Positions 3,965-23,638 are shown, counted from the first letter of the stretch. The stretch is DNA of 64,000 nt from Patescibacteria group bacterium (GCA_020428585.1 JAGQMP010000005.1:6152-70151), one strand, 5' to 3'. The notes: generated by a model not told the origin, from the letters alone. Program-made: numbers and translations.

Positions 3965-5518
3965 TTACTCAATGAGTTCAATCTCTCCTTGAATCTCTAA
4001 TGAAGAATCAAGATCTTCTGGTGTTCGTGATCGTTGGTACGCTCGAATACCAACTAGACCTAACGCGATCGTTATCGCCACTACCGTCTCGATAATCGGC
4101 ATCTTCCCAGATTGATCGTCAGGTGCTGATGTTTGGGCAAGGGTATACTCTTCGCTGGCAAACGCAACAGCTTGACGTGTTGGATTTTTTTCAAGGAACG
4201 TTTCGAGACGTGATTGGGTTGTCTCTAAACCAGAACTGGGCGATGCATCATCAGCGGTATCTTTCAAAGAAAGACCGCTCGTCGTCGGTAGTGGCTGGTA
4301 TCCTGCTCGTAAAGACGAGGCGGTTCGACCATCTTCATTCAATAGAAGAACGTCTTGACCCCTTGAAATAGGACCAAGCCCATGCACCGATCGAGGAATG
4401 GTGATGGATCCCGATCCTGGGATGTAGGTATACCGTTCAAAGAGATAGGACGAGGCTTGATACTTGAGACTCCATCCCGAGAGATCGAGTTTGGTAGAAC
4501 TCCTGTTTGAGATGGTAATACCCGAGAGATCATCAACTCCATTGATGTATAATGGCTGATCAAGGACAGTAAGAGAGCGTTTTACGATAACTTTAGGGTC
4601 TTCACCAACCCCTTCTGCCATCTTGCTGCTATAGAATTCAAATACAACATCGTAAGTTCCAGGATATTCGTAGACATGTGATGTTTCCATTCGCTCTTCG
4701 GATTCAAAATATGAACCATCGCCAAATGAAAGGTAGTAGATCCCTCCCTTTAACCTCTTGATCGTTCGGTATTCGTTCGTATGGTTAATGTAAGCTTCGA
4801 ATGAAACAGGTGATCCAGCGACAGCCTGGGTAAGTACATTCAGGTATCCACGATCAACATCAACGTTAGTAAGGTTGGTCTCGCTCTCAACAGGGTCAGG
4901 GGATGTCGGGGTTGGGTTCGGTCCACTATCCTCGTTTTCAGTCCCCGGGGTAGGACTCGATGCTACCCAGGAACCTGATATCAACTGAAGGCTATTGCCA
5001 TCACCTGCTGCACCTATTGATCCATCATAGGTGACGGTTGAAACAATCGCTTTAGTCTCATTACTCATCGATAAGGTCTCACCAGTATTTGAAAGTGAGA
5101 ACGAAGCTTTCACTAGTTTCAATGATGAGCCAAATTCACCGTACACATTTTGTAAATTTTGTACGATCAACGCACGAGCGCCAGGGGCCAAGGTATCAAA
5201 CCCATCAGGGGTCAAACCATGGTTCGTTTCAGCTTCGAAAAAGTACCACGAACCAATCTCGATGGCAGATGATCCTGTGTTTGTAACTTCAACCCATTCG
5301 AACCCGCTGTCGGTGCCCTCGTGATCGTACATAATCTCGGTAATTTCGAGGTCAGCATGGGATGCGAATGGCACGAAAATTAATACCGCAAGAAAAGCAA
5401 GTTTAGCTAAAAATACCCTTGAGGACGTCTTCGGGAACCTCGCGAACAGAGCCTCCTTTATTTGAAGGTTTATTTTCTGTGTTTGGCTCTTTTTTAGTTG
5501 TGGTGGTGTTCTCGTCAT
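3965..5518 (-). CDS. Secreted/membrane-anchored protein with two lamin-tail-domain (LTD)-like modules
   Basis: Signal-peptide-like FLAKLAFLAVLIFVPFASHA. LTD signature DLEITEIMYDHEGTDSGFEWVEVTNTGSSAIEIGSWYF, and a second DLSGWSLKY module. C-terminal TM IIETVVAITIALGLVGI. The start is uncertain: the first ATG overlaps the upstream gene by 116 nt. Confidence 0.65.
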   Translation of the reverse strand: MTRTPPQLKKSQTQKINLQIKEALFARFPKTSSRVFLAKLAFLAVLIFVPFASHADLEITEIMYDHEGTDSGFEWVEVTNTGSSAIEIGSWYFFEAETNHGLTPDGFDTLAPGARALIVQNLQNVYGEFGSSLKLVKASFSLSNTGETLSMSNETKAIVSTVTYDGSIGAAGDGNSLQLISGSWVASSPTPGTENEDSGPNPTPTSPDPVESETNLTNVDVDRGYLNVLTQAVAGSPVSFEAYINHTNEYRTIKRLKGGIYYLSFGDGSYFESEERMETSHVYEYPGTYDVVFEFYSSKMAEGVGEDPKVIVKRSLTVLDQPLYINGVDDLSGITISNRSSTKLDLSGWSLKYQASSYLFERYTYIPGSGSITIPRSVHGLGPISRGQDVLLLNEDGRTASSLRAGYQPLPTTSGLSLKDTADDASPSSGLETTQSRLETFLEKNPTRQAVAFASEEYTLAQTSAPDDQSGKMPIIETVVAITIALGLVGIRAYQRSRTPEDLDSSLEIQGEIELIE

Positions 5519-7445
5519 GGTGGGCAGGTTTCGTGCCCTCCTTCAGCGGTGTATCCTCTGTCGTTTCCGCCTGGCTTCCTCCTTGTTTCATATCGTCTGT
5601 TACTTTGCGAGGAGGTCTCTTTTTCTCACTCTCATCTATTGTGTCATTAACCCTTACTGCTATTTTGGATGGAGCTTTCTTATCAGCATTGCCCATGGCC
5701 TTCTTTAAGACTGCCTGAAGCGATGACATGGTGCCTTCTTTGGCGCCTCGATCAGATCCCGGTTTTGATTTTGAAACCCGGGCCACTTTTTCAGCGACTG
5801 ATGCAGGGATGGTGGTTTGAGTACCCGTCTCTCGAGTGCCAGTCTTGGCGAGGGGTTCCGAGCTGATATCGTGACGTTTGATATTTTCAACAACTTTAGG
5901 AATTACCTTATTCTTTGGATGATCTTCAGTATCTGAACCAAATTTATCCAAGAGATCGTTCAACCTTGGCGAGACGATTTTTTTCATCTCGTATTCGGCC
6001 TCTTTCTCGTCCAGTTCCTTGGCTGCTTTTTTCAAGGAACTGGATCCTGCATCCCGTTCTTTTCGCGGCGCCGAGAGAATCCTCTTTTCTAAAAAATCTT
6101 GTTTATCTGATCGTTGATCAGCTTCTGGTTTAAAGCTGCGACGTTCTGGTTTCTTGATCGGTTCGTGCCAGGCCATCACAGCGGCTTCAACCTCGGCTCG
6201 TGGCATAGCGTAGATACGGCGTGAATGTTCAATCACTGCCTCACGCAAAGATTCCCCTGGTTTCTCGACCGGCGGCATCGTGCGTGCTGAAAAAGGCCGT
6301 GATCCAATGCCATCAATCATCAACGACAGATAGATTTGGAATTTACCTAGGTTTACTAAATCTTCGGCCGTAAAGGTCGGTGCAAACTGCTTTTCAAAGA
6401 CCTCGGCATCGGTGGCACCAATGCGGAAGGTAACCATCGTACCCACGTTACCAAAAATCGCCGCAGCCACGTTTTCATCCATCTGCTCGACGTACTGGTG
6501 GGCAACCGTGAGGTTCAGTTTATATTTTCGCGCCTCGGACAAAATATCAGCAAACGATTCGTTCGCAAAGTTCTGAAACTCGTCAACAAACATGAAAAAG
6601 TTTGGCAAGTCATCCAATCGACCCGCGCCAACATCTGCACGACTCATCGCAGCGAGGTACAGTTTCGTAATCAACATTCCGCCCAATAGATTGCCATTTG
6701 ACTCACCAATCAATCCTTTTGATAGATTCACCAAGAGAATCTTTTGTTCATCCATGATCTTGCGAAAATCGATCGCAGATTCCTGTTGTCCGACAATATT
6801 ACGGATTAACGGATTCGCCGTGAACTGACCAATCTTGTTTTGGATAGCGGCGCCAGCCTCACGTGCATAGCGAGGGTCCCATTTGTTGTATTCATCAATC
6901 CAAAAGGCCTTCACCGACGGGTCGGTGATATGTTTAATCACATCATCGCGAAAATCTTTTTCGGCGAGCATACGGTTCACCCCGAGGAGCGTCGCGTTTG
7001 GATATTCAAGCAACGCCAACAACGTGTTCGACAGGATATATTCCATCCTGGCTGAAAAGGCATCAACCCAGATTTTCTTGAACGATGCCATCAGCCCTGC
7101 TACCACGAGGTGACGTTTATCAGGGTCAACGGCCTCAAGCACGTTGAATGACATTGGATAATCAGTATCAAAGGGCGCAAAATAGACGACATCTTTCACG
7201 CGATGTTCTGGGATATAATCGATCAACACATCAATTGCCGACCCGTGCGGATCCATAAAGCACATACCCTCGCCATTCAAAATGTCCTGCGCGGCCATGT
7301 TTTCCAGCAAAGTTGACTTCCCCATTCCCGTCTTCCCGATGACGTAGACGTGACGCGACCGGTCCTTGTTTTTGATACCAAAACGCGTCCTCCGATTGCG
7401 AAAATCGGTCTCGGCAAAGTAGGTTACCTGTTCCCCGTTTGACAT
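5403..7445 (-). CDS. Soluble FtsK/HerA-superfamily ATPase of the TraD/VirD4 (type IV coupling protein)-like family, with a ~260-aa disordered K/E/S/T-rich C-terminal tail
   Basis: Walker A VIGKTGMGKSTLL. Walker B FFMFVDEFQNFA. Block KYKLNLTVAHQYVEQ resembles the TraD/TraG C-terminal all-alpha domain. No N-terminal TM. Confidence 0.6.
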   Translation of the reverse strand: MSNGEQVTYFAETDFRNRRTRFGIKNKDRSRHVYVIGKTGMGKSTLLENMAAQDILNGEGMCFMDPHGSAIDVLIDYIPEHRVKDVVYFAPFDTDYPMSFNVLEAVDPDKRHLVVAGLMASFKKIWVDAFSARMEYILSNTLLALLEYPNATLLGVNRMLAEKDFRDDVIKHITDPSVKAFWIDEYNKWDPRYAREAGAAIQNKIGQFTANPLIRNIVGQQESAIDFRKIMDEQKILLVNLSKGLIGESNGNLLGGMLITKLYLAAMSRADVGAGRLDDLPNFFMFVDEFQNFANESFADILSEARKYKLNLTVAHQYVEQMDENVAAAIFGNVGTMVTFRIGATDAEVFEKQFAPTFTAEDLVNLGKFQIYLSLMIDGIGSRPFSARTMPPVEKPGESLREAVIEHSRRIYAMPRAEVEAAVMAWHEPIKKPERRSFKPEADQRSDKQDFLEKRILSAPRKERDAGSSSLKKAAKELDEKEAEYEMKKIVSPRLNDLLDKFGSDTEDHPKNKVIPKVVENIKRHDISSEPLAKTGTRETGTQTTIPASVAEKVARVSKSKPGSDRGAKEGTMSSLQAVLKKAMGNADKKAPSKIAVRVNDTIDESEKKRPPRKVTDDMKQGGSQAETTEDTPLKEGTKPAHHDENTTTTKKEPNTENKPSNKGGSVREVPEDVLKGIFS

Positions 7446-7515: not shown

Positions 7516-10500
7516 TTATTTTGTCTTGTTTTCCATATAGAAGGAGATATCAGCATCGAACTTATCCATACTTTTTTCAATCAAAGCATCCAAGTCAGAA
7601 GCTACAGTCGTAGCCTCATCACCGAATAATTGGGCTAATTCACTACGTTGTGATTCACTGCCAATCATAATGGCGGAACGCATATGTTCACCAAAACCGT
7701 GAATTTCATCTTCAGATGACATGAATTTTTTTATCTTCTCCGAGTTACCGCTGCTATCTCCCCCATCTCCGACAAAATAGAGCGCGGAAGCATAATCTGG
7801 GTATTCATACGACTCATCCCTAAGTTCTTGAGCAGACTTTCTTAACGCGGGAAGCATATCTGTTCCTCCTTGGGTATTAATCTCTGTCATTAAACGCATT
7901 TTGATAGTTGTAGACTTGCCGTTTTCGAAATCATACTTCTCAGGAGAACCGTATTTTTGGTTAAAGTTCTTTATATTTTTAATCCCATCAGAGAAGGTGT
8001 TTATTGAAAATCGTATATAGCCAAACTGTTCTTCAATTTTACTGAAGAGTTCTGAATAAAAAATCAACAACTTACGTGCATCTTCTAGTTTTTGGCCAGA
8101 CATAGAACCACTCACATCAACCATAATGGATGACAGAAACAAGGGTTTTACGTTTGGCTTAATCATTTTAGGATTCTTAACCGTCCCAAAAATAAGATTT
8201 CTCGTTCTGTTGAGGGAACGTCTGTCAAAGAGTCCTTGCCGGGTTTGAGATGCATCATCAATGAACATCTCGTCCTTATGGGGGAGGCGTTCAACAAAAT
8301 ACTCGAACCAATTATCAACAAGGGGTTCAATATCTCTCCTAATTGATTCGTATCGTTCGTACAAACTTTTTTCGCGTTCAATTTGCTTTTGAAGCTCATC
8401 AAAATCTACAAAACCCTCCTGCTCCAACAATTGTTCCAGTTCTTCGCGACGTTCTTCATCCATAAACCCGTCGTCCGTCATTTTATCAAGCTCATCTTTG
8501 ATATCCTCTAGCATCTCTTCTTTTTTGGCCTCCGTCTTCCGCTCAAGTTCCTCTTTCATATCATCGAAGATATCTGAATTTTCAATTTCCTGTCGTAAAT
8601 CTTTTAAATCATCAAATGAATCGACATCTTTGAGCTTCTCCTCGATTTTATCCTTGAGGTCTTGCATTTCTTGCACCTGTTCTTTGGCTTGATCTAAATC
8701 GTGCTGACCTTGCTCGAGATCTTGATTATCAACTTCTTTTTTGTTCTCTGTGGATGAGTCTGACGCATTACTTTTTTCTGATTCATCATAATTTTGTTGC
8801 TGATTGATGTCTTGAGGGCTCTCCTGACCTCCATCATCAGCCTGTTCGCCAGGATTCATAGGTTCCCCTCCACTTTCGTTATTTCCGTCCTCAGGCTTGG
8901 CCTGCGGCGTAGCATCAAAACGCACCCACCGAGAGCCATCCCAAACCTCTGACCACGCATGTCCTGAGTTTTGAGTTATCTTTGAAGTGTTATCTTTTTG
9001 ACCTTCCACATGATAACCCGTAACCAAACGGGATGGGACTTTGGCTGCACGTAACATGGCAATAAATTTGGTATTAGCAGAATAACATTCAAGATACTCT
9101 GACAAGTCGATGTTTTGTAGATAGTTATTACCTGTAGATTCAACCCTCAGCTTATGTTGCAATGCTTGAGCTGATTGAAGATTTCCACCACCTGGATAGA
9201 AATGATTCGCTAAAATGTACTGCCGTACCTGTTCTGCCTTTTGTAAAATTGAACCGTGGAGATTTTTAATTTTCTTTTCTGTTTTTTCAGAGAGTACCCC
9301 CTTGTATAGAGAACTCGTATCTTCCGGAACAGGTTTTCCTATAAAGAGAAAGTCTTCCTTACCAAAGGAAATTGAAAAGGTGCTTGGTCCCCGTGACTCT
9401 AAATAGAAACAACCATTTTGGTCACGTAATATACGCGGCTCAACCCCCTCGTAAGTTAGGGTGTTAGTGTCAAGAGCATACGAATTAGGAAGAGGGAGTG
9501 ATTTTATCCCCTGATTGAGAGCGCCTGAAATAACATATGAGGATTGTGAAACCTTCCCTGAATAAGTTGAAGTTTGTTTCTTTTTACTCCATGTTTTCCT
9601 CTCGACGTCAAAGTAACTCTTTCTTCCGCTAATGAAATAACCTGTGAGACCTGGCTGAATTTCATAGATAGCACGACTTGGGCCTTTTTCCAACGCATTG
9701 GCACCTTGGGCTTGTGGAGGGGGTGTGTGGTATTCATCTGAATCTTCCGGTGGAATAGCTGGGTCTTGCTCTGTTCCAGGGTAGCCAACCTCATCTTTGT
9801 ATTGGTCAAGCACCTCGTCAAGCTGCTGCATGCTCTCACTAACACCTCCTCTGGACGAACCGCGTTCAATGCGAGGGAGTTCTTTTCGCGTGGATTCAAC
9901 GAGTTCTTTAAATGATCCACTATCGCCAGTATCAACATATTTTCCGTATGTTTCAGATAAACGATTGAAAAGTTCCCGTTCTTCCCCCGAGAGTTGGGAA
10001 ATTACTTGATCACAATCTTGTTCACTCGCGATTCCAAATTGATTTGCCATCCAATCGAATCTCAAACTAGAAATAACCTTATCAGTTTTAGAAAGGTTAC
10101 TGATATTCTCCTTGATGATTTCTGCTTCCCGATTTAACGATGATTCGATCTGTTGTTTCCCTTGACGACTGTAAGCATCGTGGAGTTTCTTTTGTATCCG
10201 TCCCTTAGCAATGCCATCATAAATTGTTTGGATAGTTTCTGGAGTAGCGTCCACATCTTTCATAGAGCGCATGAATTCAGAAAATTCAGAGTAATCATAA
10301 TTTTCGATTAACGCTGTTTTTTCAAAAATCTCACTTTGCACTTGTGGCAATCCTCGTTGTTCTAAGTCTTCCACCTTGTACAACAAAGCATCGGGTCTGA
10401 GTTTCCCAGACACCTCTTCTGCCGAGTATTTTCCATCAATGAGTCCTTGGAGAATTTCAGTACGCTCGTGACTATCAACCGAGTAATGAAATCCCCATTC

Positions 10501-10641
10501 TTTTCCGGGCAAAACTCTTATATTTCCCTGTTTTGCCTGGTTGGCCAGAAAGATCATCTCGCGAGCGTACTTACGAAAATCTTTCGAAGATGTTTGTTCC
10601 TGCTTTTGTGTTAGTTTTTCGAAAAATTTATCCATGATCAC
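7516..10641 (-). CDS. Large cytoplasmic protein: N-terminal unknown region, transglutaminase-like cysteine-protease core, acidic coiled coil, C-terminal von Willebrand factor A domain
   Basis: Transglutaminase-like triad context ECYSANTKFIAMLRAAKVPSRLVTGY...GHAWSEVWDGSRWVRFDATP. vWA with MIDAS-like DVSGSMSG...TQGGTD...GDGGDS. A GTG at 10641 overlaps the upstream TAG stop by 1 nt; an alternative ATG lies at 10635. Confidence 0.7.
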   Translation of the reverse strand: MIMDKFFEKLTQKQEQTSSKDFRKYAREMIFLANQAKQGNIRVLPGKEWGFHYSVDSHERTEILQGLIDGKYSAEEVSGKLRPDALLYKVEDLEQRGLPQVQSEIFEKTALIENYDYSEFSEFMRSMKDVDATPETIQTIYDGIAKGRIQKKLHDAYSRQGKQQIESSLNREAEIIKENISNLSKTDKVISSLRFDWMANQFGIASEQDCDQVISQLSGEERELFNRLSETYGKYVDTGDSGSFKELVESTRKELPRIERGSSRGGVSESMQQLDEVLDQYKDEVGYPGTEQDPAIPPEDSDEYHTPPPQAQGANALEKGPSRAIYEIQPGLTGYFISGRKSYFDVERKTWSKKKQTSTYSGKVSQSSYVISGALNQGIKSLPLPNSYALDTNTLTYEGVEPRILRDQNGCFYLESRGPSTFSISFGKEDFLFIGKPVPEDTSSLYKGVLSEKTEKKIKNLHGSILQKAEQVRQYILANHFYPGGGNLQSAQALQHKLRVESTGNNYLQNIDLSEYLECYSANTKFIAMLRAAKVPSRLVTGYHVEGQKDNTSKITQNSGHAWSEVWDGSRWVRFDATPQAKPEDGNNESGGEPMNPGEQADDGGQESPQDINQQQNYDESEKSNASDSSTENKKEVDNQDLEQGQHDLDQAKEQVQEMQDLKDKIEEKLKDVDSFDDLKDLRQEIENSDIFDDMKEELERKTEAKKEEMLEDIKDELDKMTDDGFMDEERREELEQLLEQEGFVDFDELQKQIEREKSLYERYESIRRDIEPLVDNWFEYFVERLPHKDEMFIDDASQTRQGLFDRRSLNRTRNLIFGTVKNPKMIKPNVKPLFLSSIMVDVSGSMSGQKLEDARKLLIFYSELFSKIEEQFGYIRFSINTFSDGIKNIKNFNQKYGSPEKYDFENGKSTTIKMRLMTEINTQGGTDMLPALRKSAQELRDESYEYPDYASALYFVGDGGDSSGNSEKIKKFMSSEDEIHGFGEHMRSAIMIGSESQRSELAQLFGDEATTVASDLDALIEKSMDKFDADISFYMENKTK

Positions 10642-13600
10642 TATGAAGCCACCCTATTCTTCGAAGACCAACTAGCCATAGTTTGTCTAATTTTAGAACG
10701 ATCAGACTCGCTGTAAATATGGCTCAAGAAGAATCGTTCGAGGAGATCCTTAGCAACGACATCTGGATCAGCAGTGGCCTTATCCTCAACTGAGATTTTA
10801 CCTAGAGCATATGCACAACGCTGAAACTCGCGCGCAGTAATAGGTTGCTTGACAGGAAGAGCATTTCGAGACTCGCGTGAATCTTCAAAATTCTTCATAA
10901 AGTCTACACGTAATAAATTACCAAACTGAACGAGTGCCTTAATAGTCTGGAGATCAAATTCTTGGACGCTATTCAACTCTGGCGCATCGTTATCGATGCC
11001 ATTTATGTACCTATCCCAAACTTTAACAAACTCATTGTGTTCAAGATTAGGATCAAGGGTAAGATCCTCAAGGGATCCAGTATTACGAGCAATTCGCATA
11101 GCTTCCGCAGAGTTAAATTTAGGATTTTTGTTGGTATCCTCAGGATCAGGCTTAATCTCTAGATCAGGGTATCCAACCTCCATTGAAACCATGCGACTCT
11201 TCGTAGCATATTGAGGATCAAAGGTGCCTGGATAGTTAGGGTTCATCGAACTGGCAAGGAGAACAGAGGGATCAGCCTCAATAACCTTGCCAGAACTTGT
11301 TTTGAGAGTTAATGCGCGTTTTTCATCCCACAATGCATGGAGAAAAATTTGAGACTGTTCGGGCATGCCGTTCACCTCATTGAAATAAACAATAGATCCG
11401 GGAGTCTGTATGCCACGCAACACCGCCGAAGGAACCTTAATGGTTTGGGTTGCTCCATCCTTTGATTCCAACATAACGTCTTCGGACAATTCAAATTCGG
11501 TTGTCCATTTGGTACAATCAGTCGAGAAGTAAGGGCGATTCGTTCTGTTGCTAAACATCTTCAACAGTACATCCTTACCGGTTCCCGTATGTCCGTTGAG
11601 GTTGAGGATCCCTTCTCCGAGTTCAAGTTGCATCTTAAATAACTCGGCCATCTTTTGTAGATTATTTTGAGTTTCTGAATCAACCACCCAGTTAGATCGC
11701 CACCTCGGAACAAATCCCTTGCCATTTTCATCAATCACCTCCTGACTTGCGATTTTATCCATGTGCCTAAAGAGGGCTACATTATTTTCGCCAAGGAAGG
11801 TTTTGTATTCTTCATACTTCTCGGTATAGCGCGTCTTCCACTCTTGGTCTGATTTATTTCGCGCTTCGTCAGGCTTCGCCCGTTCAGAGTAAATCCGAGC
11901 TAAATCAGTTCGTAGTTGTTCATACTGTTGTTTCAGTTTTCCTTCCTCACTTGCCCAGTCGCGGTACTTGTTTCTCAGATCTTTAAATTCATTGGCAGAC
12001 ATGTACGTTGGTTGGGTATCAACACCACGAACGGTTTTCAATCCCAAACGCCACTCATCCTCGTCTTCCCTGTCTGCGAACACGCGTGATTTTGTCTTTG
12101 AACCATCAGGATTGGTGACCAACATCATCACATCACCATACATCTCCCCAGGTTTTACCCCGACGCCAGCAGTGTTCTTATTGGCCTCAAAAGTCATCTC
12201 AACACGTCGTTCAGATTGCTCCTTAACTTTTGCTTCATACCGTGGAAACGATTCATTACCAAACATAACCATCTGCTGACCAGTCTCGGCAACCGTTGTA
12301 TGGGTACCTGCTTCAACGTCATAGAGAATTTGTGCAACCCCCACCTTTAACTCCCTACGTAACTCTCGAGCCTTATCGGGATTATCAGTCCCTAGCTTTT
12401 CAATCTCGGCTTCCAAAAGCTTCTTGCTCTCGCTTGAAGAAATATATTGTTCTGCTGAACCCTTATCACCAAATTCTTTTTCGTTGAGACGGTTCTTGAA
12501 GGCTTGTATATCCTCATAGAGGTTGTCTGCTAGTTGATCGACACGAATCGATGCAGATTCGCGAACTTTTGCGTATTCCTTCTTGAACTTATCCCGATAC
12601 GTTTTGGCAAGGAGTTCAAGGCTGTTACGCGCATCGTTGATTTTTTGGTACGCATCGTTCGCCTCAACAGGAACATCACGAAGCATGTCTTGGAAACGCG
12701 TTTTGTATTTAGGCAACTGAAACTCGTCCCAGGTGTTAAAGTCACGCATCGTCTCGATAGCGGACAGCTCATTTTTAATCCCGCCGAGGAGGTTGTCGAT
12801 CTCCTCCATCACCTGCTTCCCTTCCTTCTGGAACAACTGGTTGGCCCGTCGATCCAGTTCATGCAGAACATCATTGTAGAGGGTTCGGGCCTCTTGATCC
12901 ATGACGTTCTCGAGCGATTGTAATGTACGTAATTGTTCCCGCGAATGTGAGATGAGTTTCATCGAAAGGTCTCCTTCAAGGTCTTTCCTTACAAGATCAA
13001 CAATACGAACGACTTCGTCTTTGGCAAATTCGCGCTCCTTGGCAAGGAAGTCGTTTTCAACATCATTGAGGATGAAATTGATTTGTGTTTCCTTCAATCC
13101 TTCTTTTCGCAATCTTGATTTGATGAGTTCTAAATTTGTTCGAAAGATGCTCGCGCTAGAAGCATCGACGACCGAACTAAGGTATTTTCGGGTAATGCCT
13201 TCGTACTGATCCTTGAGTTCCTTGAAATGCTTGTTATCGGTATCATTATACGCCTCCTGCCGTGTCTTAGAATTTTTAAAGATTTCTTCAATATCAACCC
13301 CTTCTGAAATCTTCTTTGCTCGATTGGCAGCAATGCGTTCTTGTAAGGAGTCCATCTCAAGAGCATACTTGACCAGGTAACCTTCTTCATTTACTGCGGT
13401 GATGTTCCCCTTGGAATCAAAGTTTACAGCTGAAACCCCCTTCTTTCGTGAGATTTCCTCCAAGGTATCCTTAGTCAGCAAGACCAACTCATCTCCGGAA
13501 TAGAATAAGAAAAAGGTTCCCGTCGGATCTAATTGGAAATTTCTAATATTTTCATATTTCTTCGGTAACTTAGCCTTTGTCTTCTCGGGAGATTGGATGC

Positions 13601-14459
13601 CGCCAGAAAAGTCTATACGAACGATGCCGTCTGGGTTATCAAACGATACATAGTAAATTATTTCTGGACTAGAGGGATCACTGATAATATTCTCTTTAAC
13701 CTCCGGAATAATATCAGAGTACAAGGGTTTTTCATTTGGTTTTTTTGAATCAACGATATTAATACTAGTACCAGTAACTATCGCGGAATATTTGTCGTTG
13801 TTTAAGTCTGAAAATCCCTCGTTCGGGAGACAAACTGTCTCAGCAATGACATCTTTGACTTCTTCTGGCATCGTCTTGGAGTCCCATTTATGATGTTTCC
13901 AATTCTCGGGGGAAAGGACAATACCGTTTTCGTTGGTAGTAACGTAGGTCTCATAAGACTTTGTATCAGGATCCACAAAGACTAAATATTTACCTCGCTC
14001 TAGTATTTTTAAATCACGTGGAAGAGTGTATTTAGAAGAAACCTGACTCACTGAATTTAAATGATGCTGCTTCTTAGCTAGATAAGTAAGAACCCCCTGC
14101 ATGTACTCCGGGGCCTTTTGAACATCGTACCGAGACCACTCCTGGTCACCCGTTAAAGAAAAAGAATAAAGATTATCAACCTTGGGCACCCCATCATATT
14201 CAGGTAAATTCCTTCTATTCACTTCAAAAGAAGTTGAAGTTTTTATAAGGGTTGTTTCCTCTTTTTCTAGAGAGTGGTTAAAGACTTCGATGTTTGAGCC
14301 ATCTTTTTTTGACACCAACAAATAATCGTGCCAGGGAATGGTCGATTCAACATTATCCATCTTTAATTTCTCCTTTGATCGAAGGATTTCTTTCAGTTCG
14401 ATCACATCCTCTTTCTTCTCGATGGAGTTTTCTAATGATTCTGGTGAATGTCCGTGCAT
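10641..14459 (-). CDS. Giant protein (1272 aa): beta-rich (propeller-like) N-terminus, ~400-aa coiled coil, C-terminal MoxR/AAA_5-like AAA+ ATPase domain
   Basis: Walker A LNGHTGTGKD. Walker B IVYFNEVNG. MoxR-like sensor block VLLASSMNPNYPGT (compare ATxNP). Repeated beta-strand-like blocks in the N-terminus (IIYYVSFDNPDGIVRIDF, FFLFYSGDELVLL, and others). Confidence 0.65.
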   Translation of the reverse strand: MHGHSPESLENSIEKKEDVIELKEILRSKEKLKMDNVESTIPWHDYLLVSKKDGSNIEVFNHSLEKEETTLIKTSTSFEVNRRNLPEYDGVPKVDNLYSFSLTGDQEWSRYDVQKAPEYMQGVLTYLAKKQHHLNSVSQVSSKYTLPRDLKILERGKYLVFVDPDTKSYETYVTTNENGIVLSPENWKHHKWDSKTMPEEVKDVIAETVCLPNEGFSDLNNDKYSAIVTGTSINIVDSKKPNEKPLYSDIIPEVKENIISDPSSPEIIYYVSFDNPDGIVRIDFSGGIQSPEKTKAKLPKKYENIRNFQLDPTGTFFLFYSGDELVLLTKDTLEEISRKKGVSAVNFDSKGNITAVNEEGYLVKYALEMDSLQERIAANRAKKISEGVDIEEIFKNSKTRQEAYNDTDNKHFKELKDQYEGITRKYLSSVVDASSASIFRTNLELIKSRLRKEGLKETQINFILNDVENDFLAKEREFAKDEVVRIVDLVRKDLEGDLSMKLISHSREQLRTLQSLENVMDQEARTLYNDVLHELDRRANQLFQKEGKQVMEEIDNLLGGIKNELSAIETMRDFNTWDEFQLPKYKTRFQDMLRDVPVEANDAYQKINDARNSLELLAKTYRDKFKKEYAKVRESASIRVDQLADNLYEDIQAFKNRLNEKEFGDKGSAEQYISSSESKKLLEAEIEKLGTDNPDKARELRRELKVGVAQILYDVEAGTHTTVAETGQQMVMFGNESFPRYEAKVKEQSERRVEMTFEANKNTAGVGVKPGEMYGDVMMLVTNPDGSKTKSRVFADREDEDEWRLGLKTVRGVDTQPTYMSANEFKDLRNKYRDWASEEGKLKQQYEQLRTDLARIYSERAKPDEARNKSDQEWKTRYTEKYEEYKTFLGENNVALFRHMDKIASQEVIDENGKGFVPRWRSNWVVDSETQNNLQKMAELFKMQLELGEGILNLNGHTGTGKDVLLKMFSNRTNRPYFSTDCTKWTTEFELSEDVMLESKDGATQTIKVPSAVLRGIQTPGSIVYFNEVNGMPEQSQIFLHALWDEKRALTLKTSSGKVIEADPSVLLASSMNPNYPGTFDPQYATKSRMVSMEVGYPDLEIKPDPEDTNKNPKFNSAEAMRIARNTGSLEDLTLDPNLEHNEFVKVWDRYINGIDNDAPELNSVQEFDLQTIKALVQFGNLLRVDFMKNFEDSRESRNALPVKQPITAREFQRCAYALGKISVEDKATADPDVVAKDLLERFFLSHIYSESDRSKIRQTMASWSSKNRVAS

Positions 14460-14510
14460 GAATTTATTATATCATATTAATATATTATGTAAGGATTACT
14501 CACACCTCTC
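14460..14510 (-). promoter_or_regulatory. Candidate promoter of the giant-protein operon (minus strand): TTACAT-N15-TATAAT ending ~6 nt before the ATG
   Basis: Reverse complement reads cttacataatatattaatatgaTATAATaaattcATG. Confidence 0.35.
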
Positions 14511-19903: not shown

Positions 19904-22900
19904 TTACTTATAAACCTCCATTGAGGTATTTCCAAATTCAACACAAGAATATCTAGATTCATCATGATCGCTAGACGATCTACATATATATTCTACACTT
20001 GATTTTCCTTGACCCTGGGATACGACGAGATAAGCCGTTTTTGCCCCATCAGCCGAGAAGGTCTGTCTGGATGTCTCTCCATCAATGGTAATATTTTTTG
20101 ACCTGTTTCGATTCCTTTTTGGATCATTTACCAAAAGGATGAATTCAGTATTTACCAAAACATCTTGTTGACCTCCTTCAACATTCACACGTATCTGTTT
20201 TTTATCTGGAATATCAGCATACCCAACCGCAACCATGATATGCCCTGGTTCACCAAACATAACCGGTCGATTTCTATCAATTGATGATTTAATCGTGGTG
20301 AATTTTTTAGCTGATCCTGGATCAAGGTGACGATACGACAAATCAATACTATCTTTCCCAAAATAATCCTCGTAGCCGCTGGTATAACCCAAAGCACAAC
20401 CTTCAAGCGAAGTCGTAGCAAAAGCTCCGTCGACTTCAAACCCTTGATAAGTACATGAATCGTCGAGGTTCTGCCCCTTGTCATTCCAAATAAATTCACG
20501 AAGGCCTTCATCGACTACTTCTCCATTAAAGGTGACGTTCTGGGACAGGTAACTCGGCAAGACGTCGTAATAACTAGCAATCATCACTGCGGAAGCCCCC
20601 GTACACATTGAGGTCCCGCCTTTCAGCGGTGAAGCAACCGATCCTGCAGTACCTAGGGGAACTGGTTCGCCATCTTTGTAGTACATTTGCTGTGGCAGAT
20701 ATGGTACATCGAGAATTTTTGCAGTAAGAATTTCTTCGGGAAGAGGTATGGAAACCTCTTCACCATTTTCATCTTTGACGGTTTTATCATCGCTAGGAAG
20801 TTTGATATTATATTCATCTACTAGTTGTTGAAGCTTGACGCTATCAACCACTTCGATAATGGTATTCCCGTATTCATCTGTGCTTACTTGAATAGCGTTT
20901 TGGCGCACCGATTCATCGATGAAGTCTTGCTGATCACGACGGAAAAGGTTTTTAAACCAATTCCACCCATCTTCGAACCAACCAACCACATCCTGGATAA
21001 AGGTTGTATCACCTTCAGATTCTTCAGTAGGTTCATCAGCTACAGGTTCTTCTTCTCCGACTTCCTCCTTCCCTTCAATCTCACCACAATTACTATCAAC
21101 GAAAGATGAAGTTCCAGGACCGAAGATACCATCGCTGGTGAGGTTGTTATCGGATTGGAATTCAGTTAGGGCTGCCTTGGTACCGTTCCCGAATATCCCA
21201 TCAATCGGTGGGCCGAGGTAGCCGAGGTCCCTCAAGAATATCTGCAATTTCACCACCGCCTCGCGATCGGAACTTCCCTTTCTGATACTTGGCTCTTCTG
21301 ATTGAATGTCGAGACAACTGTTTTCAAGGAGGTAAATGGGTTCTTCTTCGATTTCTTCTGGTGATTCTGGATCAGCTATTGGATCATTTTCAGTGTCGTC
21401 ATCAAGTTCGTCTTCATTATTATCAGTGTGTGACGATCCGCCGCCGGTGACTTCTTCTTCAATGGTGAAACTGCTTGAACCTGATAGATGCCCAGCTATG
21501 GCCGACAAAGTGTAAGTATCTGGTTCAAGATCAAAAACCAAAGAAAACTCGGCTGAACCGTCAATCATCTCTGCCTCGGTCGGACTGATATCTCGATCAT
21601 CAATAGCCAAGGTCAGTGTTCCTGTGTAATCAAAGTCATCAGCAAGGATACTTACCACGAGGTTCGTCGTCCCAAAAGGCAAACTGGTGTCGTGCTCTAG
21701 GCTAAAGTAATCGTCGTCAGATTCAGGATCGGTGACCTGAAAGGTATTCCCTTCACCTATTCGGTAATCATCTGAAACAACGATGTGGTAGGTTCCTGGC
21801 GAAACATCCAGTTCATCGATCGAAAAAGTTCCGTTGCCAGAGCTAAGAGAAAGACTGCCAAGGCTCGTTGAGGAATCATCAACAAGACTCAGATCCACCT
21901 CACCCGCATAATCAGGATTATAAGCGGCAACGCTAAATGATAATGGTTCAAGGCGAACAAGGTCATCAATATCAGAGACTTCGAAATAATTTTGTTCTTT
22001 TAATATATCAGGAATTGAAAGCCCGACATTGATTGATCGCGCCTCTTCACCATCAATATTCCAAAACCGCGTCATGCCAGAGGCGATGGTGTCTGATACA
22101 TCACTACTGGTCCCAGGATCAGCGCTAACCGACGTTCCCGTGACTGAACTTGTCACTACTTCACCAAGTGAAGATTCATCGTCCGCCATACGAAAGGAAT
22201 AGATCGCCAAAGGGTCACCCTCCCAAGCGAGACGCGTCGTGGTAGGTGACCATGTACCTTGGTTATCAACCGATCCATACAAGAACGGAGTTAGGTAGCG
22301 ACTAATTGATCCCTGATTTAATAAATCGCCAGTGAATGTAATATCTTCAGCGCTCGCAAGACTGCGCTCGCTTAATGAAGCGTCTTCTTTAATCCAGGTA
22401 AACAAAACATCGTTGGTATAACTGCGCATTTTGTGATTACCAGTTATAACAAGGTAGCGAGCGGTGATATTTCCAACCTGTAAGGTTTCTGTTGGATCAT
22501 TGACTCCAAACCAAACAATCCCGTTCGTGTCGAGGTCTCCTGAAAGGATATTCAACGATAGAACATTATCAGTGTCCGCAAAGGTAAGGGGAAAATCGTC
22601 CGTGATGAGAGTGTCGATCGAAGCACTATCAGATAAGGTAATCGGGGTCGCCAAGGTTACCGAAGTATCAAAAAATCCTGAAAGGGTGCGAACAACTTCC
22701 CCATTTAAGGTCAGATCCGACAACCATGTACCTTCATTACTAACCCCGCCATGAGCTATCACATCAATATATTGAAGAATCGTTCCTTGATTTATGAGAT
22801 CACCATACGTGTGAATCGTATAATTAGTACCAGAAGATTTCGGCCATAGAGAAGCACTTGGATGAATCATGATAGCATCATCTGCGCTAAGAGTATCATC

Positions 22901-23638
22901 GCGAAGGGTATGCGTGCCGTAGAAATTGATAGCCGTCGCACTAACATTACCGACTTGAGTCGTAGCGTCGCTACTATCATCCCCAAAATTGACGGTCGCG
23001 TTTGTACTAACATCGCCTGAAACTGTGGTGAGGTTGAGTGTCGCCTCAGACCCCTCGAAGGTAATCGCATAATGATTCGTAGTAAGAGAGGGCCAAAAGA
23101 TAATCGGACTCCCCGCAAGAGTGATCGGGGTTTCCAGGAAAACATTGATAGGAATAGTTCCATTAATAATTCGCGTTGATTCACCATTCAAACGCAGTTG
23201 ATTATTATTCCAGATTCCTAGTCCACCAATTGACCCAAGGGCAGTTGGTAAGACGTATTGGCCAACCGTTCCATCATTCAATAATCCACCCGTCACATCG
23301 AGGTCATAGGTAGTAAAACCGCTTCCATTTATTGTTGAGCCATTCGTTATATAAATCCCAGCAACCGTCGTATCAGATCGAAGTCTTACGAGTCCATTGA
23401 TTTCTACAACATCAGAGGATTCGGGAATTCTGCCTTCTTCCCAGGTAGTTACCTGGTCAAAAAATCCACCCTCAGCGACCGCGTGAAGGGTCGGTGATAC
23501 CGAAAAACCAGGGTCTTCTTGGGCAAAAGAGCTTTGCGTCAAAACATATAGACTTAAAATAGCTATAAAGAATAGATAATATAATTGTTGTCTGTATAGA
23601 TGGACAAACATAACCAAAATCATCATATCATTGCCCAT
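19904..23638 (-). CDS. Giant secreted surface protein (1244 aa): signal peptide, tandem ~150-aa N/T/G-rich repeats, acidic linker, peptidoglycan-binding-like domain, C-terminal C39-like cysteine peptidase domain
   Basis: Repeats GDLINQGTILQYIDVIAHGGVSNEGTW and GDLLNQGSISRYLTPFLYGSVDNQGTW. PG_binding_1-like LQIFLRDLGYLGPPIDGIFGNGTKAALTEFQ. C39_2-like SMCTGASAVMIASYYD ... GHIMVAVGY. Confidence 0.65.
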   Translation of the reverse strand: MGNDMMILVMFVHLYRQQLYYLFFIAILSLYVLTQSSFAQEDPGFSVSPTLHAVAEGGFFDQVTTWEEGRIPESSDVVEINGLVRLRSDTTVAGIYITNGSTINGSGFTTYDLDVTGGLLNDGTVGQYVLPTALGSIGGLGIWNNNQLRLNGESTRIINGTIPINVFLETPITLAGSPIIFWPSLTTNHYAITFEGSEATLNLTTVSGDVSTNATVNFGDDSSDATTQVGNVSATAINFYGTHTLRDDTLSADDAIMIHPSASLWPKSSGTNYTIHTYGDLINQGTILQYIDVIAHGGVSNEGTWLSDLTLNGEVVRTLSGFFDTSVTLATPITLSDSASIDTLITDDFPLTFADTDNVLSLNILSGDLDTNGIVWFGVNDPTETLQVGNITARYLVITGNHKMRSYTNDVLFTWIKEDASLSERSLASAEDITFTGDLLNQGSISRYLTPFLYGSVDNQGTWSPTTTRLAWEGDPLAIYSFRMADDESSLGEVVTSSVTGTSVSADPGTSSDVSDTIASGMTRFWNIDGEEARSINVGLSIPDILKEQNYFEVSDIDDLVRLEPLSFSVAAYNPDYAGEVDLSLVDDSSTSLGSLSLSSGNGTFSIDELDVSPGTYHIVVSDDYRIGEGNTFQVTDPESDDDYFSLEHDTSLPFGTTNLVVSILADDFDYTGTLTLAIDDRDISPTEAEMIDGSAEFSLVFDLEPDTYTLSAIAGHLSGSSSFTIEEEVTGGGSSHTDNNEDELDDDTENDPIADPESPEEIEEEPIYLLENSCLDIQSEEPSIRKGSSDREAVVKLQIFLRDLGYLGPPIDGIFGNGTKAALTEFQSDNNLTSDGIFGPGTSSFVDSNCGEIEGKEEVGEEEPVADEPTEESEGDTTFIQDVVGWFEDGWNWFKNLFRRDQQDFIDESVRQNAIQVSTDEYGNTIIEVVDSVKLQQLVDEYNIKLPSDDKTVKDENGEEVSIPLPEEILTAKILDVPYLPQQMYYKDGEPVPLGTAGSVASPLKGGTSMCTGASAVMIASYYDVLPSYLSQNVTFNGEVVDEGLREFIWNDKGQNLDDSCTYQGFEVDGAFATTSLEGCALGYTSGYEDYFGKDSIDLSYRHLDPGSAKKFTTIKSSIDRNRPVMFGEPGHIMVAVGYADIPDKKQIRVNVEGGQQDVLVNTEFILLVNDPKRNRNRSKNITIDGETSRQTFSADGAKTAYLVVSQGQGKSSVEYICRSSSDHDESRYSCVEFGNTSMEVYK

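What the first reader, a model, noticed from the sequence alone, without database searches (positions are those of the whole stretch)
7516..14459. Translationally coupled giant gene pair: MoxR-like AAA+ ATPase (1272 aa) and a transglutaminase + vWA fusion (1041 aa)
Seen in sequence. The upstream gene (10641-14459) encodes a protein with the following parts.
- A ~350-aa N-terminal beta-rich region with repeated strand-like blocks, possibly a propeller.
- A ~400-aa heptad-rich coiled coil.
- A C-terminal AAA+ domain: Walker A GHTGTGKD, Walker B VYFNEVNG, and a MoxR/AAA_5-type sensor block LLASSMNPNYPGT.
Its stop codon overlaps (1 nt) or sits 5 nt from the start of the downstream gene (7516-10641), which has three parts.
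- A transglutaminase-like Cys-His-Asp core (ECYSAN...GHAWSEVWDGSRWVRFDATP).
- A ~190-aa acidic coiled coil.
- A C-terminal vWA domain with MIDAS residues (DVSGSMSG, GGTD).
Established knowledge: MoxR-clade AAA+ ATPases are canonically operon-paired with vWA proteins. MoxR-DUF58(vWA-like)-transglutaminase triads occur widely, but as small separate proteins with a membrane-bound transglutaminase.
Inference: this is a fused, soluble, giant version of that functional triad, with extra propeller and coiled-coil modules. It might act as an ATP-driven remodelling/crosslinking or protease machine. The Walker A has Asp where Ser/Thr is usual (GKD), so the ATPase may be atypical.
Basis: partly seen in the sequence, partly recalled or inferred. 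Interest (0 to 1): 0.85.

Follow-up and report, generated by a model that had tools for sequence, protein, structure and literature searches.

The report
Giant MoxR ATPase–transglutaminase/vWA gene pair
Two very large neighbouring genes in an ultra-small (Patescibacteria/CPR) bacterium encode an unusual ATP-driven remodelling motor and a partner carrying a protein-modifying (transglutaminase-type) enzyme and a metal-dependent grip domain; the pair is kept together in every relative examined, has not been described in the papers I could search, and its cellular target is unknown.

Summary

A lies directly upstream of B on the same strand in every locus that includes upstream sequence, about 45 in all, from several CPR classes. 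No third gene is conserved beside them. The A and B trees are congruent, and divergence tracks FtsZ, FtsA and YchF. However, only 44 of 185,579 species genomes matched, so the family is broad but sparse.

All members have Walker A GKD and Walker B NE instead of GK[S/T] and DE.

More distant TGase-MIDAS proteins are also each adjacent to an AAA_5 gene; one comes from a lineage that reads UGA as a sense codon.

My best reading is a cytoplasmic MoxR-vWA remodelling machine with a built-in TgpA-type enzyme. This is a new variant of a known kind; the client is unknown.

The parts
10641..14459 (-). Gene A, 1272 aa (GenBank MCA9351250.1, 'AAA family ATPase'): WD40 propeller, helical stalk, beta-rich domain and MoxR-class AAA+ module
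   Evidence: ORF; translation; Pfam AAA_5; exact-sequence look-up
13356..14402 (-). Gene A aa ~20-368: WD40-like beta-propeller. About six blades are resolved. An insert at aa 73-147 is poorly conserved and modelled with low confidence.
12315..13355 (-). Gene A aa 369-715: long charged helical stalk, partly heptad-like, with no indels among 29 homologues
   Evidence: Gap fraction 0.00 in every 25-residue block from aa 401 to 750 (0.01 for aa 376-400); 3 Pro and 11 Gly in 340 aa, and heptad-like segments at 500-538 and 584-664; weak apolipoprotein-type hits
11970..12314 (-). Gene A aa 716-830: conserved beta-rich module of unknown fold (VAETGQQM...EWRLG)
   Evidence: Conservation 0.54-0.67; no Pfam or PDB match. 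Its fold was not modelled.
10644..11669 (-). Gene A aa 931-1272: AAA+ core and lid. Key residues are Walker A GHTGTGKD (956-963), Walker B VYFNE (1024-1028), sensor-1 N1073 and the Arg finger R1089 just before strand 5.
   Evidence: Pfam AAA_5; profile alignment to CbbQ 5c3c and 6l1q and to NorQ 9qh4; invariant columns; motif counts
7516..10641 (-). Gene B, 1041 aa: helical N-domain, beta-sandwich, transglutaminase core, acidic linker and vWA/MIDAS domain. The matching database protein (P0008, 965 aa, locus tag KC929_00540, 'hypothetical protein') covers only 93% of this ORF, so its gene call probably starts too far downstream.
   Evidence: ORF; translation; conservation already 0.77 at aa 26-50; P0008 is 100% identical over 93% of the query
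9733..10566 (-). Gene B aa 26-303: alpha/beta plus helical N-terminal domain with no recognisable relative. It is followed by the conserved motif PAIPPEDxDEYHTPPP (aa 294-309).
8902..9666 (-). Gene B aa 326-580: beta-sandwich plus transglutaminase-like core with the triad C519, H561, D576 (TgpA-type module)
8332..8901 (-). Gene B aa 581-770: acidic linker. Aa 581-650 is low-complexity; aa 651-770 is helical-looking and free of indels.
   Evidence: 65 Asp/Glu against 26 Lys/Arg in 190 aa; gap profile
7519..8331 (-). Gene B aa 771-1041: vWA domain with a complete MIDAS (D842-x-S844-x-S846, T927, D959)
   Evidence: Pfam VWA_2 and VWA; DxSxS and GDGxD present in 120 of 120 homologues and GGT[ND] in 112 of 120; weak alignment to the ITIH vWA across the MIDAS residues
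10635..10643 (-). Junction between A and B: TAG stop overlapping the GTG start by 1 nt, with an alternative ATG 5 nt after the stop
   Evidence: Sequence. In homologues the start of the longest gene B reading frame lies 2-82 nt (mostly 4-28 nt) after the gene A stop; in two loci the called frames overlap.
14466..14493 (-). Promoter-like site CTTACA-16-TG-TATAAT ending 6 nt before the gene A ATG. It is a consensus match only.
   Evidence: The total number of such sites in the region does not exceed the shuffled expectation.

Best explanation
The two genes most likely encode one cytoplasmic two-subunit machine of the MoxR-vWA chaperone/remodeller type.

Shown:
- Gene A carries a single AAA+ module of the CbbQ/NorQ-like branch. 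It keeps the Walker B catalytic Glu (E1028), sensor-1 Asn (N1073) and the Arg finger before strand 5 (R1089).
- That module sits behind a WD40-like propeller and a helical stalk that has no indels among homologues.
- Gene B carries a TgpA-type beta-sandwich plus Cys-His-Asp transglutaminase module, an acidic linker and a vWA domain with an intact MIDAS.
- The two genes are adjacent in every locus examined that includes upstream sequence, and their trees are congruent.

Inferred by analogy with CbbQ-CbbO, NorQ-NorD, BchI-BchD and midasin (my own knowledge of these systems):
- Gene A forms a hexameric ring, so six propeller-tipped arms project from it.
- Gene B docks on the ring as the adaptor.
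- The MIDAS grips an acidic side chain of a client, or of a conserved acidic motif in the complex itself.
- ATP turnover pulls on the adaptor or client.
- This presents the client to, or releases it from, the thiol active site. The active site then crosslinks (Gln-Lys), deamidates or cleaves it.
- The propeller selects or tethers the client.

The invariant swap (Walker A GKD, Walker B NE) moves the metal-binding carboxylate from Walker B to Walker A. It probably retunes nucleotide handling rather than abolishing it.

The client and the biological role are not identified. The evolutionary rate resembles that of housekeeping proteins. The occasional position next to ftsA/ftsZ, together with TgpA's reported importance for viability, hints weakly at envelope or division biology.
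For: Domains:
- Pfam AAA_5, Transglut_core and VWA_2.
- PDB profile hits to CbbQ (E 7e-14) and NorQ (E 1e-11), with residue-level alignment of GKS to GKD and DE to NE.
- TgpA is the top structural match by two methods.
- WD40 fold for the gene A N-terminus.

Active-site conservation:
- Invariant columns.
- GKD in 24 of 24, and NE in 18 of 18, further homologues or fragments in which my motif search found the site; DxSxS in 120 of 120.

Coupling of the two genes:
- A lies directly upstream of B on the same strand in every locus that includes upstream sequence, about 45 loci.
- A and B are the only gene families that recur across the loci.
- The neighbour-joining trees of A and B are congruent and follow taxonomy.
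- Distant TGase-MIDAS proteins are also each adjacent to an AAA_5 gene, although gene order differs.

Location and constraint:
- Cytoplasmic location is suggested by a maximum 19-residue hydropathy below 1.0.
- Gene B identity between the same genome pairs lies at or between FtsA and FtsZ and just below YchF: 70.5 vs 68.6/77.2, 49.2 vs 43.8/53.9, and 48.7 vs 54.2.
- The stalk and linker lengths have no indels.

General model: the MoxR-vWA chaperone/co-chaperone model, and the role of the Arg finger before strand 5 in ring formation, are described in PMC7159879.
Against: - No assembly, ATPase or transglutaminase activity has been tested.
- The Walker A Ser/Thr to Asp and Walker B Asp to Asn changes could make the module a nucleotide-binding switch or an inactive scaffold.
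- The vWA match for the window protein itself is below Pfam's cut-off. Its fold was not modelled. It has no significant PDB sequence relative.
- The family was found in only 44 of 185,579 species genomes, with patterns that catch 119 of 120 close members. The function is therefore dispensable for most CPR lineages, which weakens any housekeeping or division reading.
- Proximity to ftsA/ftsZ was seen in only two lineages. I estimate this is not clearly above chance.
- No client is identified.
Confidence: 0.55

Rival explanations
1. A conflict, immunity or threat-sensing system of the MoxR-vWA type described by Kaur, Burroughs, Iyer and Aravind (2020). In this reading the propeller senses an invader-derived or stress signal. 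The MoxR-vWA pair then licenses the transglutaminase-like thiol peptidase as an effector or activator.
For: - The domain repertoire matches theirs: MoxR, vWA, beta-propeller, coiled coil and a transglutaminase-like thiol peptidase (PMC7159879).
- The distribution in CPR is sparse.
- The least conserved part of the pair is the first half of the propeller and its insert (conservation 0.20-0.38).
- Distant relatives sit beside TCAD9 kinase-like genes (L054, L055), a TPR-S/MAP3K_TRAF_bd gene and prophage-like genes (L049).
- A host-side MoxR/vWA/propeller/transglutaminase threat-sensing cluster has been reported in Actinobacteria (PMC13622651).
Against: - No conserved third component was found.
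- There are no PADLOC hits beyond noise.
- There are no phage or viral-contig relatives.
- The evolutionary rate equals that of FtsA, FtsZ and YchF, and the trees follow taxonomy.
- The architecture is fixed with almost no indels.
- Neighbours are mostly housekeeping genes: dnaB, hisS, rpoA with ribosomal protein genes, and ftsA/ftsZ.
Confidence: 0.2
2. A midasin-like assembly or disassembly factor for a large cytoplasmic particle, such as the ribosome or another ribonucleoprotein. The AAA ring, acidic linker and MIDAS would extract an assembly factor or subunit. The transglutaminase domain would serve as a docking or processing module.
For: - It has the same modular logic as midasin/Rea1 (AAA_5-type ATPase, D/E-rich region, C-terminal MIDAS), although split over two chains.
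- Some neighbours are translation genes: rpsU and hisS in L053, and rpoA with ribosomal protein genes L17, L13 and S9 in L051.
- The knowledge of midasin is my own, not tested here.
Against: - There is a single AAA module, not six in tandem.
- The closest relatives are CbbQ and NorQ, not midasin or dynein.
- Neighbourhoods are not consistent across loci.
- The sparse distribution argues against a core ribosome-biogenesis role.
Confidence: 0.08
3. A mainly structural or cytoskeletal scaffold. Long helical arms and propellers would build a lattice or tether, for example at the division site or a host-contact site. The transglutaminase would lock this structure covalently, and the ATPase domain would act only as a nucleotide-gated oligomerisation hub.
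For: - The helical stalk has no indels.
- The atypical GKD/NE site could favour binding over turnover.
- The pair sits as ftsA-A-B-ftsZ in two Levybacteria genomes, and as A-B-rpsU-yqeY-ftsA-ftsZ in an unrelated lineage.
- True crosslinking transglutaminases (FXIIIa, TG2, TG3) are the next structural matches after TgpA.
Against: - The catalytic Glu, sensor-1 and Arg finger are retained, which points to real hydrolysis.
- The ftsAZ linkage is seen in only 2 of about 40 lineages.
- There is no evidence of polymer-forming domains.
Confidence: 0.1

Closest known systems
CbbQ-CbbO (Rubisco activase) and NorQ-NorD (nitric oxide reductase maturation): MoxR-class AAA+ plus a vWA adaptor
   Same: The AAA+ module aligns best to CbbQ and NorQ (E 7e-14 to 1e-10). 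It is encoded next to a large partner with a C-terminal vWA/MIDAS domain. The Arg finger before strand 5 and sensor 1 are conserved.
   Different: - Gene A carries a ~930-aa N-terminal extension (propeller, stalk, beta domain), whereas CbbQ and NorQ chains are ~270-380 aa.
- The Walker motifs are GKD/NE instead of GKS/DE.
- The adaptor carries its own transglutaminase module.
- There is no Rubisco or NOR context.
- The vWA shows no detectable sequence similarity to any solved vWA.
MoxR-DUF58-TgpA (transglutaminase) operons, e.g. P. aeruginosa TgpA and the bifidobacterial PFNA cluster
   Different: - There are two fused giant proteins instead of three or more small ones.
- There are no membrane segments, so the enzyme is cytoplasmic rather than periplasmic.
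- No DUF58 signature is found.
- The ATPase is of the CbbQ/NorQ type rather than MoxR-proper.
Midasin/Rea1, BchD and CobT: AAA+ systems with an acidic linker preceding a C-terminal MIDAS domain (own knowledge)
   Same: An acidic linker of ~190 aa lies immediately before a C-terminal MIDAS-containing vWA domain, and works with an AAA_5-type ATPase.
   Different: The ATPase and the MIDAS lie on separate chains. There is one AAA module, not six. No sequence relationship was detected.
MoxR-vWA ternary conflict systems (Kaur et al. 2020, PMC7159879)
   Same: The domain vocabulary is shared: MoxR, vWA, beta-propeller, coiled coil and a transglutaminase-like thiol peptidase.
   Different: - There is no third component.
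- The architecture is fixed and slowly evolving.
- The propeller is on the ATPase, not on the vWA protein.
- The lineage (CPR) differs.

Membership tests
MoxR-class AAA+ (Pfam AAA_5; CbbQ/NorQ/GvpN branch) | Significant match to the AAA_5 profile | tested here: met
   37.9 bits against a cut-off of 22; 29 of 29 homologues match, best E 1.7e-17
MoxR-class AAA+ (Pfam AAA_5; CbbQ/NorQ/GvpN branch) | Closest characterised relatives are MoxR-class proteins | tested here: met
   The only PDB profile hits with E below 0.01 are CbbQ (5c3c, 6l1q) and NorQ (9qh4, 9qhd). There is a weak GvpN hit in NCBIfam.
MoxR-class AAA+ (Pfam AAA_5; CbbQ/NorQ/GvpN branch) | Canonical Walker A GxxGxGK[S/T] and Walker B hhhhDE | tested here: not met
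   The motifs are GHxGTGKD and YFNE, invariant in 29 sequences, in 24 of 24 (GKD) and in 18 of 18 (NE) further homologues or fragments in which my motif search found the site. They align to GKS and DE of CbbQ.
MoxR-class AAA+ (Pfam AAA_5; CbbQ/NorQ/GvpN branch) | Sensor-1 Asn and an Arg finger just before core strand 5 | tested here: met
   N1073 and R1089 are invariant and align with the CbbQ NPGY and KQR motifs. The feature definition comes from PMC7159879.
MoxR-class AAA+ (Pfam AAA_5; CbbQ/NorQ/GvpN branch) | Compact ~270-380 aa protein (AAA+ core plus lid) that forms hexamers | tested here: not met
   The protein is 1272 aa and the AAA+ module starts at about aa 931. Hexamer formation cannot be tested with these tools.
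MoxR-class AAA+ (Pfam AAA_5; CbbQ/NorQ/GvpN branch) | Encoded next to a vWA-domain partner | tested here: met
   The two genes are adjacent on the same strand in all loci that include upstream sequence
TgpA-type transglutaminase-like proteins (Pfam Transglut_core) | Transglut_core match with a Cys-His-Asp triad | tested here: met
   45.3 bits against a cut-off of 23. C519 is at least 90% conserved; H561 and D576 are invariant.
TgpA-type transglutaminase-like proteins (Pfam Transglut_core) | Fold of a beta-sandwich plus catalytic core, as in the TgpA periplasmic domain | tested here: met
TgpA-type transglutaminase-like proteins (Pfam Transglut_core) | Membrane anchoring with a periplasmic catalytic domain | tested here: not met
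   There is no hydrophobic segment; the maximum 19-residue Kyte-Doolittle mean is 0.92
TgpA-type transglutaminase-like proteins (Pfam Transglut_core) | Transglutaminase or peptidase activity | not testable with these tools
   Requires biochemistry
vWA domain with MIDAS | Profile match to vWA families | tested here: inconclusive
   The window protein scores 24.3 bits on VWA_2 against a cut-off of 27. 19 of 20 homologues match VWA_2 and 9 of 20 match VWA at E below 0.01. There is no significant PDB sequence hit. The fold was not modelled.
vWA domain with MIDAS | MIDAS residues DxSxS ... T ... D | tested here: met
   D842, S844, S846, T927 and D959 are invariant. DxSxS and GDGxD are present in 120 of 120 homologues.
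MoxR-DUF58-transglutaminase operon (MRP subfamily) | A DUF58 protein and separate small genes | tested here: not met
   There is no DUF58 hit in any of 20 members. The architecture is fused into two genes.
MoxR-vWA ternary conflict systems (Kaur et al. 2020) | A conserved third component (VMAP, iSTAND, FtsH or a TPR/propeller protein) and variable effector domains | tested here: not met
   Clustering of all flanking ORFs finds only A and B recurring. The architecture is invariant.
Midasin/Rea1 | Six tandem AAA modules and the MIDAS on the same chain | tested here: not met
   There is a single AAA_5 stretch, and the MIDAS is on the neighbouring protein

The most novel reading that the evidence does not exclude
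The pair is an ancient, CPR-restricted molecular machine with no characterised counterpart. It would be a hexameric MoxR-type motor carrying six rigid, propeller-tipped arms of conserved length. Through a midasin-like acidic linker and MIDAS adaptor, it would drive covalent crosslinking or processing of a large cellular assembly by a cytoplasmic TgpA-type transglutaminase. Candidate assemblies are the division apparatus or a host-contact structure. It would use a rewired Mg-ATP site (Walker A Asp, Walker B Asn) not described for AAA+ proteins, as far as I know.
Probability: 0.15. Interest if true: 0.85.

Novelty: new variant of a known kind. Interest (0 to 1): 0.6.

Why it matters
CPR/Patescibacteria genomes are only about 1 Mb. 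Even so, the lineages that carry this pair spend about 7 kb on it, roughly 0.7% of the genome. They keep it at a rate of change like that of FtsA or FtsZ. The pair should therefore do something important in those organisms, whose cell biology is almost unknown.

It also offers three things to the AAA+ and transglutaminase fields:
- A natural fusion showing that a TgpA-type transglutaminase and a vWA/MIDAS adaptor act in one polypeptide with a MoxR-class motor. This could help explain the poorly understood MoxR-DUF58-TgpA operons found in many bacteria.
- A cytoplasmic version of an enzyme otherwise thought to act in the envelope.
- An invariant Walker A Asp / Walker B Asn pair, which amounts to a natural experiment on metal coordination in P-loop ATPases.

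Tried and rejected
- **Defence system:** PADLOC gave only noise for A and B.
- **Phage or mobile origin:** there were no relatives in IMG/VR contigs or in GenBank phages.
- **Conserved third gene:** all-against-all clustering of 588 flanking ORFs found none. The VirD4/TraG-like ATPase and the LTD/PKD protein downstream in this window are not conserved neighbours.
- **dcw/ftsAZ linkage:** this is real in two Levybacteria genomes and in one unrelated lineage, but absent elsewhere. I treat it as a weak hint.
- **Horizontal spread as the explanation for the high identity:** this is disfavoured. A and B divergence tracks FtsZ, FtsA and YchF in the same genome pairs, and the trees follow taxonomy.
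- **Other attempts that led nowhere:**
  - Profile search of the vWA region alone against the PDB gave nothing significant.
  - The AFDB Foldseek library was unavailable.
  - Literature searches found no description of this CPR pair.
  - The word-index search with full-length gene A returned only 7 homologues, and the search with its C-terminus returned mainly fragments. Gene A homologues were therefore taken from the fetched loci.

Full report
**1. The observation**

The window comes from a Patescibacteria (CPR) genome. A database protein 100% identical to gene B over 93% of its length carries locus tag KC929_00540 from a 'Patescibacteria group bacterium'. Gene A is MCA9351250.1, 'AAA family ATPase'.

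The two ORFs are at 10641-14459 (1272 aa, ATG start) and 7516-10641 (1041 aa, GTG start), both on the minus strand.

The junction reads TCA-TAG-TGA-TCA-TGG. The TAG stop shares its G with the GTG start, and an ATG lies 5 nt after the stop.

Conservation among homologues already reaches 0.77 at aa 26-50 of gene B. The long ORF is therefore the real one, and the 965-aa database version probably starts too late.

Neither protein has a hydrophobic stretch. The maximum 19-residue hydropathy is 0.80 for A and 0.92 for B, so both are predicted to be cytoplasmic.

**2. Anatomy of gene A**

- **AAA+ module.** Pfam finds only AAA_5 (aa 954-1090, E 2e-9), and it does so in all 29 homologues tested. A profile of the family searched against all PDB sequences hits CbbQ (5c3c, E 7e-14; 6l1q, E 1e-12) and NorQ (9qh4, E 1e-11; 9qhd, E 1e-10). 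No other AAA+ protein is hit. The module therefore belongs to the MoxR class, nearest the CbbQ/NorQ/GvpN branch.
- **Unusual Walker motifs.** The residue alignment shows CbbQ GKS against GKD here, and CbbQ DE against NE here.
  - G956, G959, G961, K962, D963, N1027, E1028, N1073 and R1089 are invariant in 29 sequences from different CPR classes.
  - GKD and NE are also present in every further homologue or fragment in which my motif search found the site.
  - The catalytic Glu, the sensor-1 Asn and the Arg finger just before strand 5 are kept. PMC7159879 describes this Arg finger as characteristic of MoxR and as associated with ring oligomerisation.
  - I therefore read the GKD/NE pair as a relocation of the metal-binding carboxylate, not as decay. 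This is inference.
- **Stalk.** Residues 369-715 are highly charged and poor in Pro and Gly, and only partly heptad-like by my crude test. They give weak apolipoprotein-type hits. Among 29 homologues this region has no indels. That resembles a mechanical stalk or ruler more than a flexible linker.
- **Beta-rich module.** Residues 716-830 form a conserved beta-rich module with no detectable relative.

**3. Anatomy of gene B**

A model of aa 1-620 was built from 56 sequences (pLDDT 87.7, pTM 0.84). It shows three parts:
- an alpha/beta plus helical N-domain (aa 26-303);
- a beta-sandwich (aa 326-428);
- a transglutaminase core (aa 452-590).

Conserved residues:
- C519, H561 and D576 are conserved.
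- A Pro-rich acidic motif, PAIPPEDxDEYHTPPP, lies between the N-domain and the sandwich. It is nearly invariant and is recognisable even in distant relatives.
- Residues 581-770 contain 65 Asp/Glu against 26 Lys/Arg.

The C-terminal region matches VWA_2 just below Pfam's cut-off in the window protein, and in 19 of 20 homologues. Among 120 homologues, DxSxS and GDGxD are present in all and GGT[ND] in 112. The vWA fold itself was not modelled, and the region has no significant PDB sequence relative. The call therefore rests on the profile match and the MIDAS motif.

**4. Conservation and context**

Gene B has at least 188 homologue clusters at 90% identity. They are about 46-58% identical over the full length and come from genomes labelled Paceibacterota, Taylor-, Kerfeld-, Magasanik-, Levy- and Roizmanbacteria.

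In the species-representative genome collection, 44 loci were recovered. In every one that includes upstream sequence, a gene A homologue lies directly upstream on the same strand. The start of the longest gene B reading frame lies 2-82 nt (mostly 4-28 nt) after the gene A stop, and in two loci the called frames overlap. The seven loci fetched by exact protein look-up show the same arrangement. One Peribacteria locus has two tandem gene A paralogues.

Clustering of all 588 flanking ORFs shows that A and B are the only recurring families. The unit is therefore a self-contained two-gene module.

Neighbour-joining trees of A and B are congruent and group Microgenomates, Parcubacteria and Peregrinibacteria separately.

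Identities between the same genome pairs:

| Genome pair | FtsZ | FtsA | YchF | Gene B | Gene A |
|---|---|---|---|---|---|
| L003 vs L025 | 77.2% | 68.6% | – | 70.5% | 50.9% |
| L003 vs L053 | 53.9% | 43.8% | – | 49.2% | 40.9% |
| Window vs L024 | – | – | 54.2% | 48.7% | 41.8% |

This fits vertical descent under strong purifying selection.

The family is nevertheless sparse. The two search patterns catch 119 of 120 close members, yet matched only 48 stretches in 185,579 species genomes. An exhaustive HMMER search of 1.84 billion representatives found about two dozen near-full-length 50%-identity clusters. Most CPR lineages have therefore lost it or never had it.

Neighbours are mainly housekeeping genes but vary from locus to locus:
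- dnaB lies divergently upstream in this window;
- rpoA and ribosomal protein genes L17, L13 and S9 lie upstream in Roizmanbacteria;
- hisS lies upstream, and rpsU-yqeY-ftsA-ftsZ downstream, in L053;
- the arrangement is mraY-ftsW-murG-x-ftsA-A-B-ftsZ in two Levybacteria genomes.

The ftsA/ftsZ proximity occurs in two unrelated lineages. With a 20-kb window in a ~1-Mb genome and about 40 lineages, I estimate roughly one such case is expected by chance. It is only a weak hint.

**5. Wider relatives**

The exhaustive search also found 800-1300 aa proteins that share only the region from the PPxDEY motif through the sandwich, the transglutaminase core and the start of the acidic linker (E 1e-91 to 1e-20). 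Those inspected also carry a C-terminal DxSGS motif or a Pfam vWA match.

Three of the four whose neighbourhood was informative lie next to an AAA_5 gene (a fifth contig, L050, held only the gene itself):
- In L049 and L054 the order is TGase, then AAA_5 of 702-773 aa, then an unknown 485-575 aa protein. The L049 ATPase has a normal GKT Walker A.
- In L056 the order is AAA_5, then the TGase-vWA protein, then an unknown 653-aa protein.
- In L055 no neighbour had a recorded AAA_5 hit, and its UGA-recoded genes could not be translated and scanned here.

L054 and L055 add a TCAD9 kinase-like gene and an inositol-monophosphatase-like gene upstream.

L055 has 29.5% GC and 89 in-frame TGA codons in the gene. 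One of them sits at the Gly position of DxSGS, so UGA most likely encodes Gly there. To my knowledge that recoding is typical of Gracilibacteria and Absconditabacteria.

The partnership between AAA_5 and TGase-MIDAS is therefore older and wider than the core family. This strengthens the case that the two proteins work together.

**6. Mechanism**

Shown:
- the domain identities;
- intact catalytic and metal-binding residues;
- consistent adjacency and co-evolution;
- a probable cytoplasmic location.

Inferred from the known MoxR-vWA systems (CbbQ-CbbO, NorQ-NorD, BchI-BchD/CobS-CobT, midasin; general model in PMC7159879):
- Gene A forms a hexameric ring with six propeller-tipped stalks.
- Gene B is the adaptor, and its MIDAS holds an acidic residue of a client or of the complex.
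- ATP turnover remodels the adaptor or client.
- This gates the thiol active site, which then crosslinks, deamidates or cleaves the client.
- The propeller supplies client recognition or tethering.

I give this 0.55. The rivals are a conflict or threat-sensing system (0.2), a structural scaffold (0.1) and a midasin-like particle-remodelling factor (0.08).

For the conflict rival:
- the domain vocabulary of the Kaur et al. systems;
- the sparse distribution;
- the lower conservation of the propeller's first half;
- the context of the distant relatives.

Against the conflict rival:
- there is no third component;
- the architecture is fixed;
- the evolutionary rate resembles that of housekeeping proteins;
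- there are no PADLOC, phage or viral-contig links.

**7. Comparison, novelty and score**

The pair works like a MoxR-vWA system, and its enzyme is a TgpA-type transglutaminase. It fails several membership criteria of each named family:
- non-canonical Walker motifs and a 930-aa N-terminal extension (against CbbQ/NorQ);
- no DUF58, no membrane anchor and a two-gene fused layout (against the MoxR-DUF58-TgpA operon);
- a single AAA module and a split chain (against midasin);
- no third gene (against the ternary conflict systems).

I found no paper describing it. Public annotation is generic: 'AAA family ATPase', 'hypothetical protein' or 'transglutaminase domain-containing protein'.

I classify it as a new variant of a known kind and score interest at 0.6. 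It is a large, strongly constrained, undescribed machine in poorly understood organisms, with an unusual ATP site. However, its component logic is familiar, its distribution is sparse and its client is unknown.

Noticed in passing
window 24875-27907 (-): The 1010-aa leucyl-tRNA synthetase carries a NUDIX domain (Pfam E 1e-11, aa 263-386). It is inserted between the first catalytic-core match and the editing domain (aa 399-530). This is an unusual insertion for LeuRS.
   Followed up: no
window 5403-7445 (-) and 3965-5518 (-): Directly downstream of gene B lies a 680-aa VirD4/TraG/HerA-like ATPase. It matches Pfam TraG-D_C and TrwB_AAD_bind and PADLOC mad8 (E 4e-17), and GenBank calls it a 'type IV secretion system DNA-binding domain-containing protein'. 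It is followed by a 517-aa lamin-tail plus PKD domain protein whose ORF overlaps it by ~116 nt. Neither is conserved next to the pair elsewhere.
   Followed up: partly
window 19904-23638 (-): A 1244-aa ORF whose only recognisable domain is a peptidoglycan-binding domain (PG_binding_1, aa 792-843).
   Followed up: no
L036 1568-5527 and 5933-9928 (+): A locus labelled Peribacteria has two tandem gene A paralogues (1319 and 1331 aa) upstream of a single gene B. Both keep the invariant GKD/NE residues.
   Followed up: partly
L055 7086-10988 (+): A distant TGase-MIDAS relative lies on a 29.5%-GC contig and has 89 in-frame TGA codons. The database gene call translated them as Trp. One falls at the Gly of the MIDAS DxSGS motif, so UGA most likely encodes Gly in this organism.
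   Followed up: partly
L054 1764-4536 and L055 3590-7099 (+): In the distant relatives, a TCAD9 kinase-like protein and an inositol-monophosphatase-like protein precede the TGase and AAA_5 genes. This suggests a larger conserved operon in those lineages.
   Followed up: partly
window 14466-14493 (-): An extended -10 promoter-like site (CTTACA-16-TG-TATAAT) ends only 6 nt before the gene A ATG. If it is functional, the mRNA would be leaderless or nearly so. It is a consensus match only, and such sites are not enriched over shuffled sequence.
   Followed up: no
window 7516-10641 (-): The matching database protein for gene B (P0008, 965 aa, locus tag KC929_00540) covers only 93% of the 1041-aa ORF. 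The missing N-terminal residues are conserved among homologues, so the start in that gene call is probably too far downstream.
   Followed up: partly
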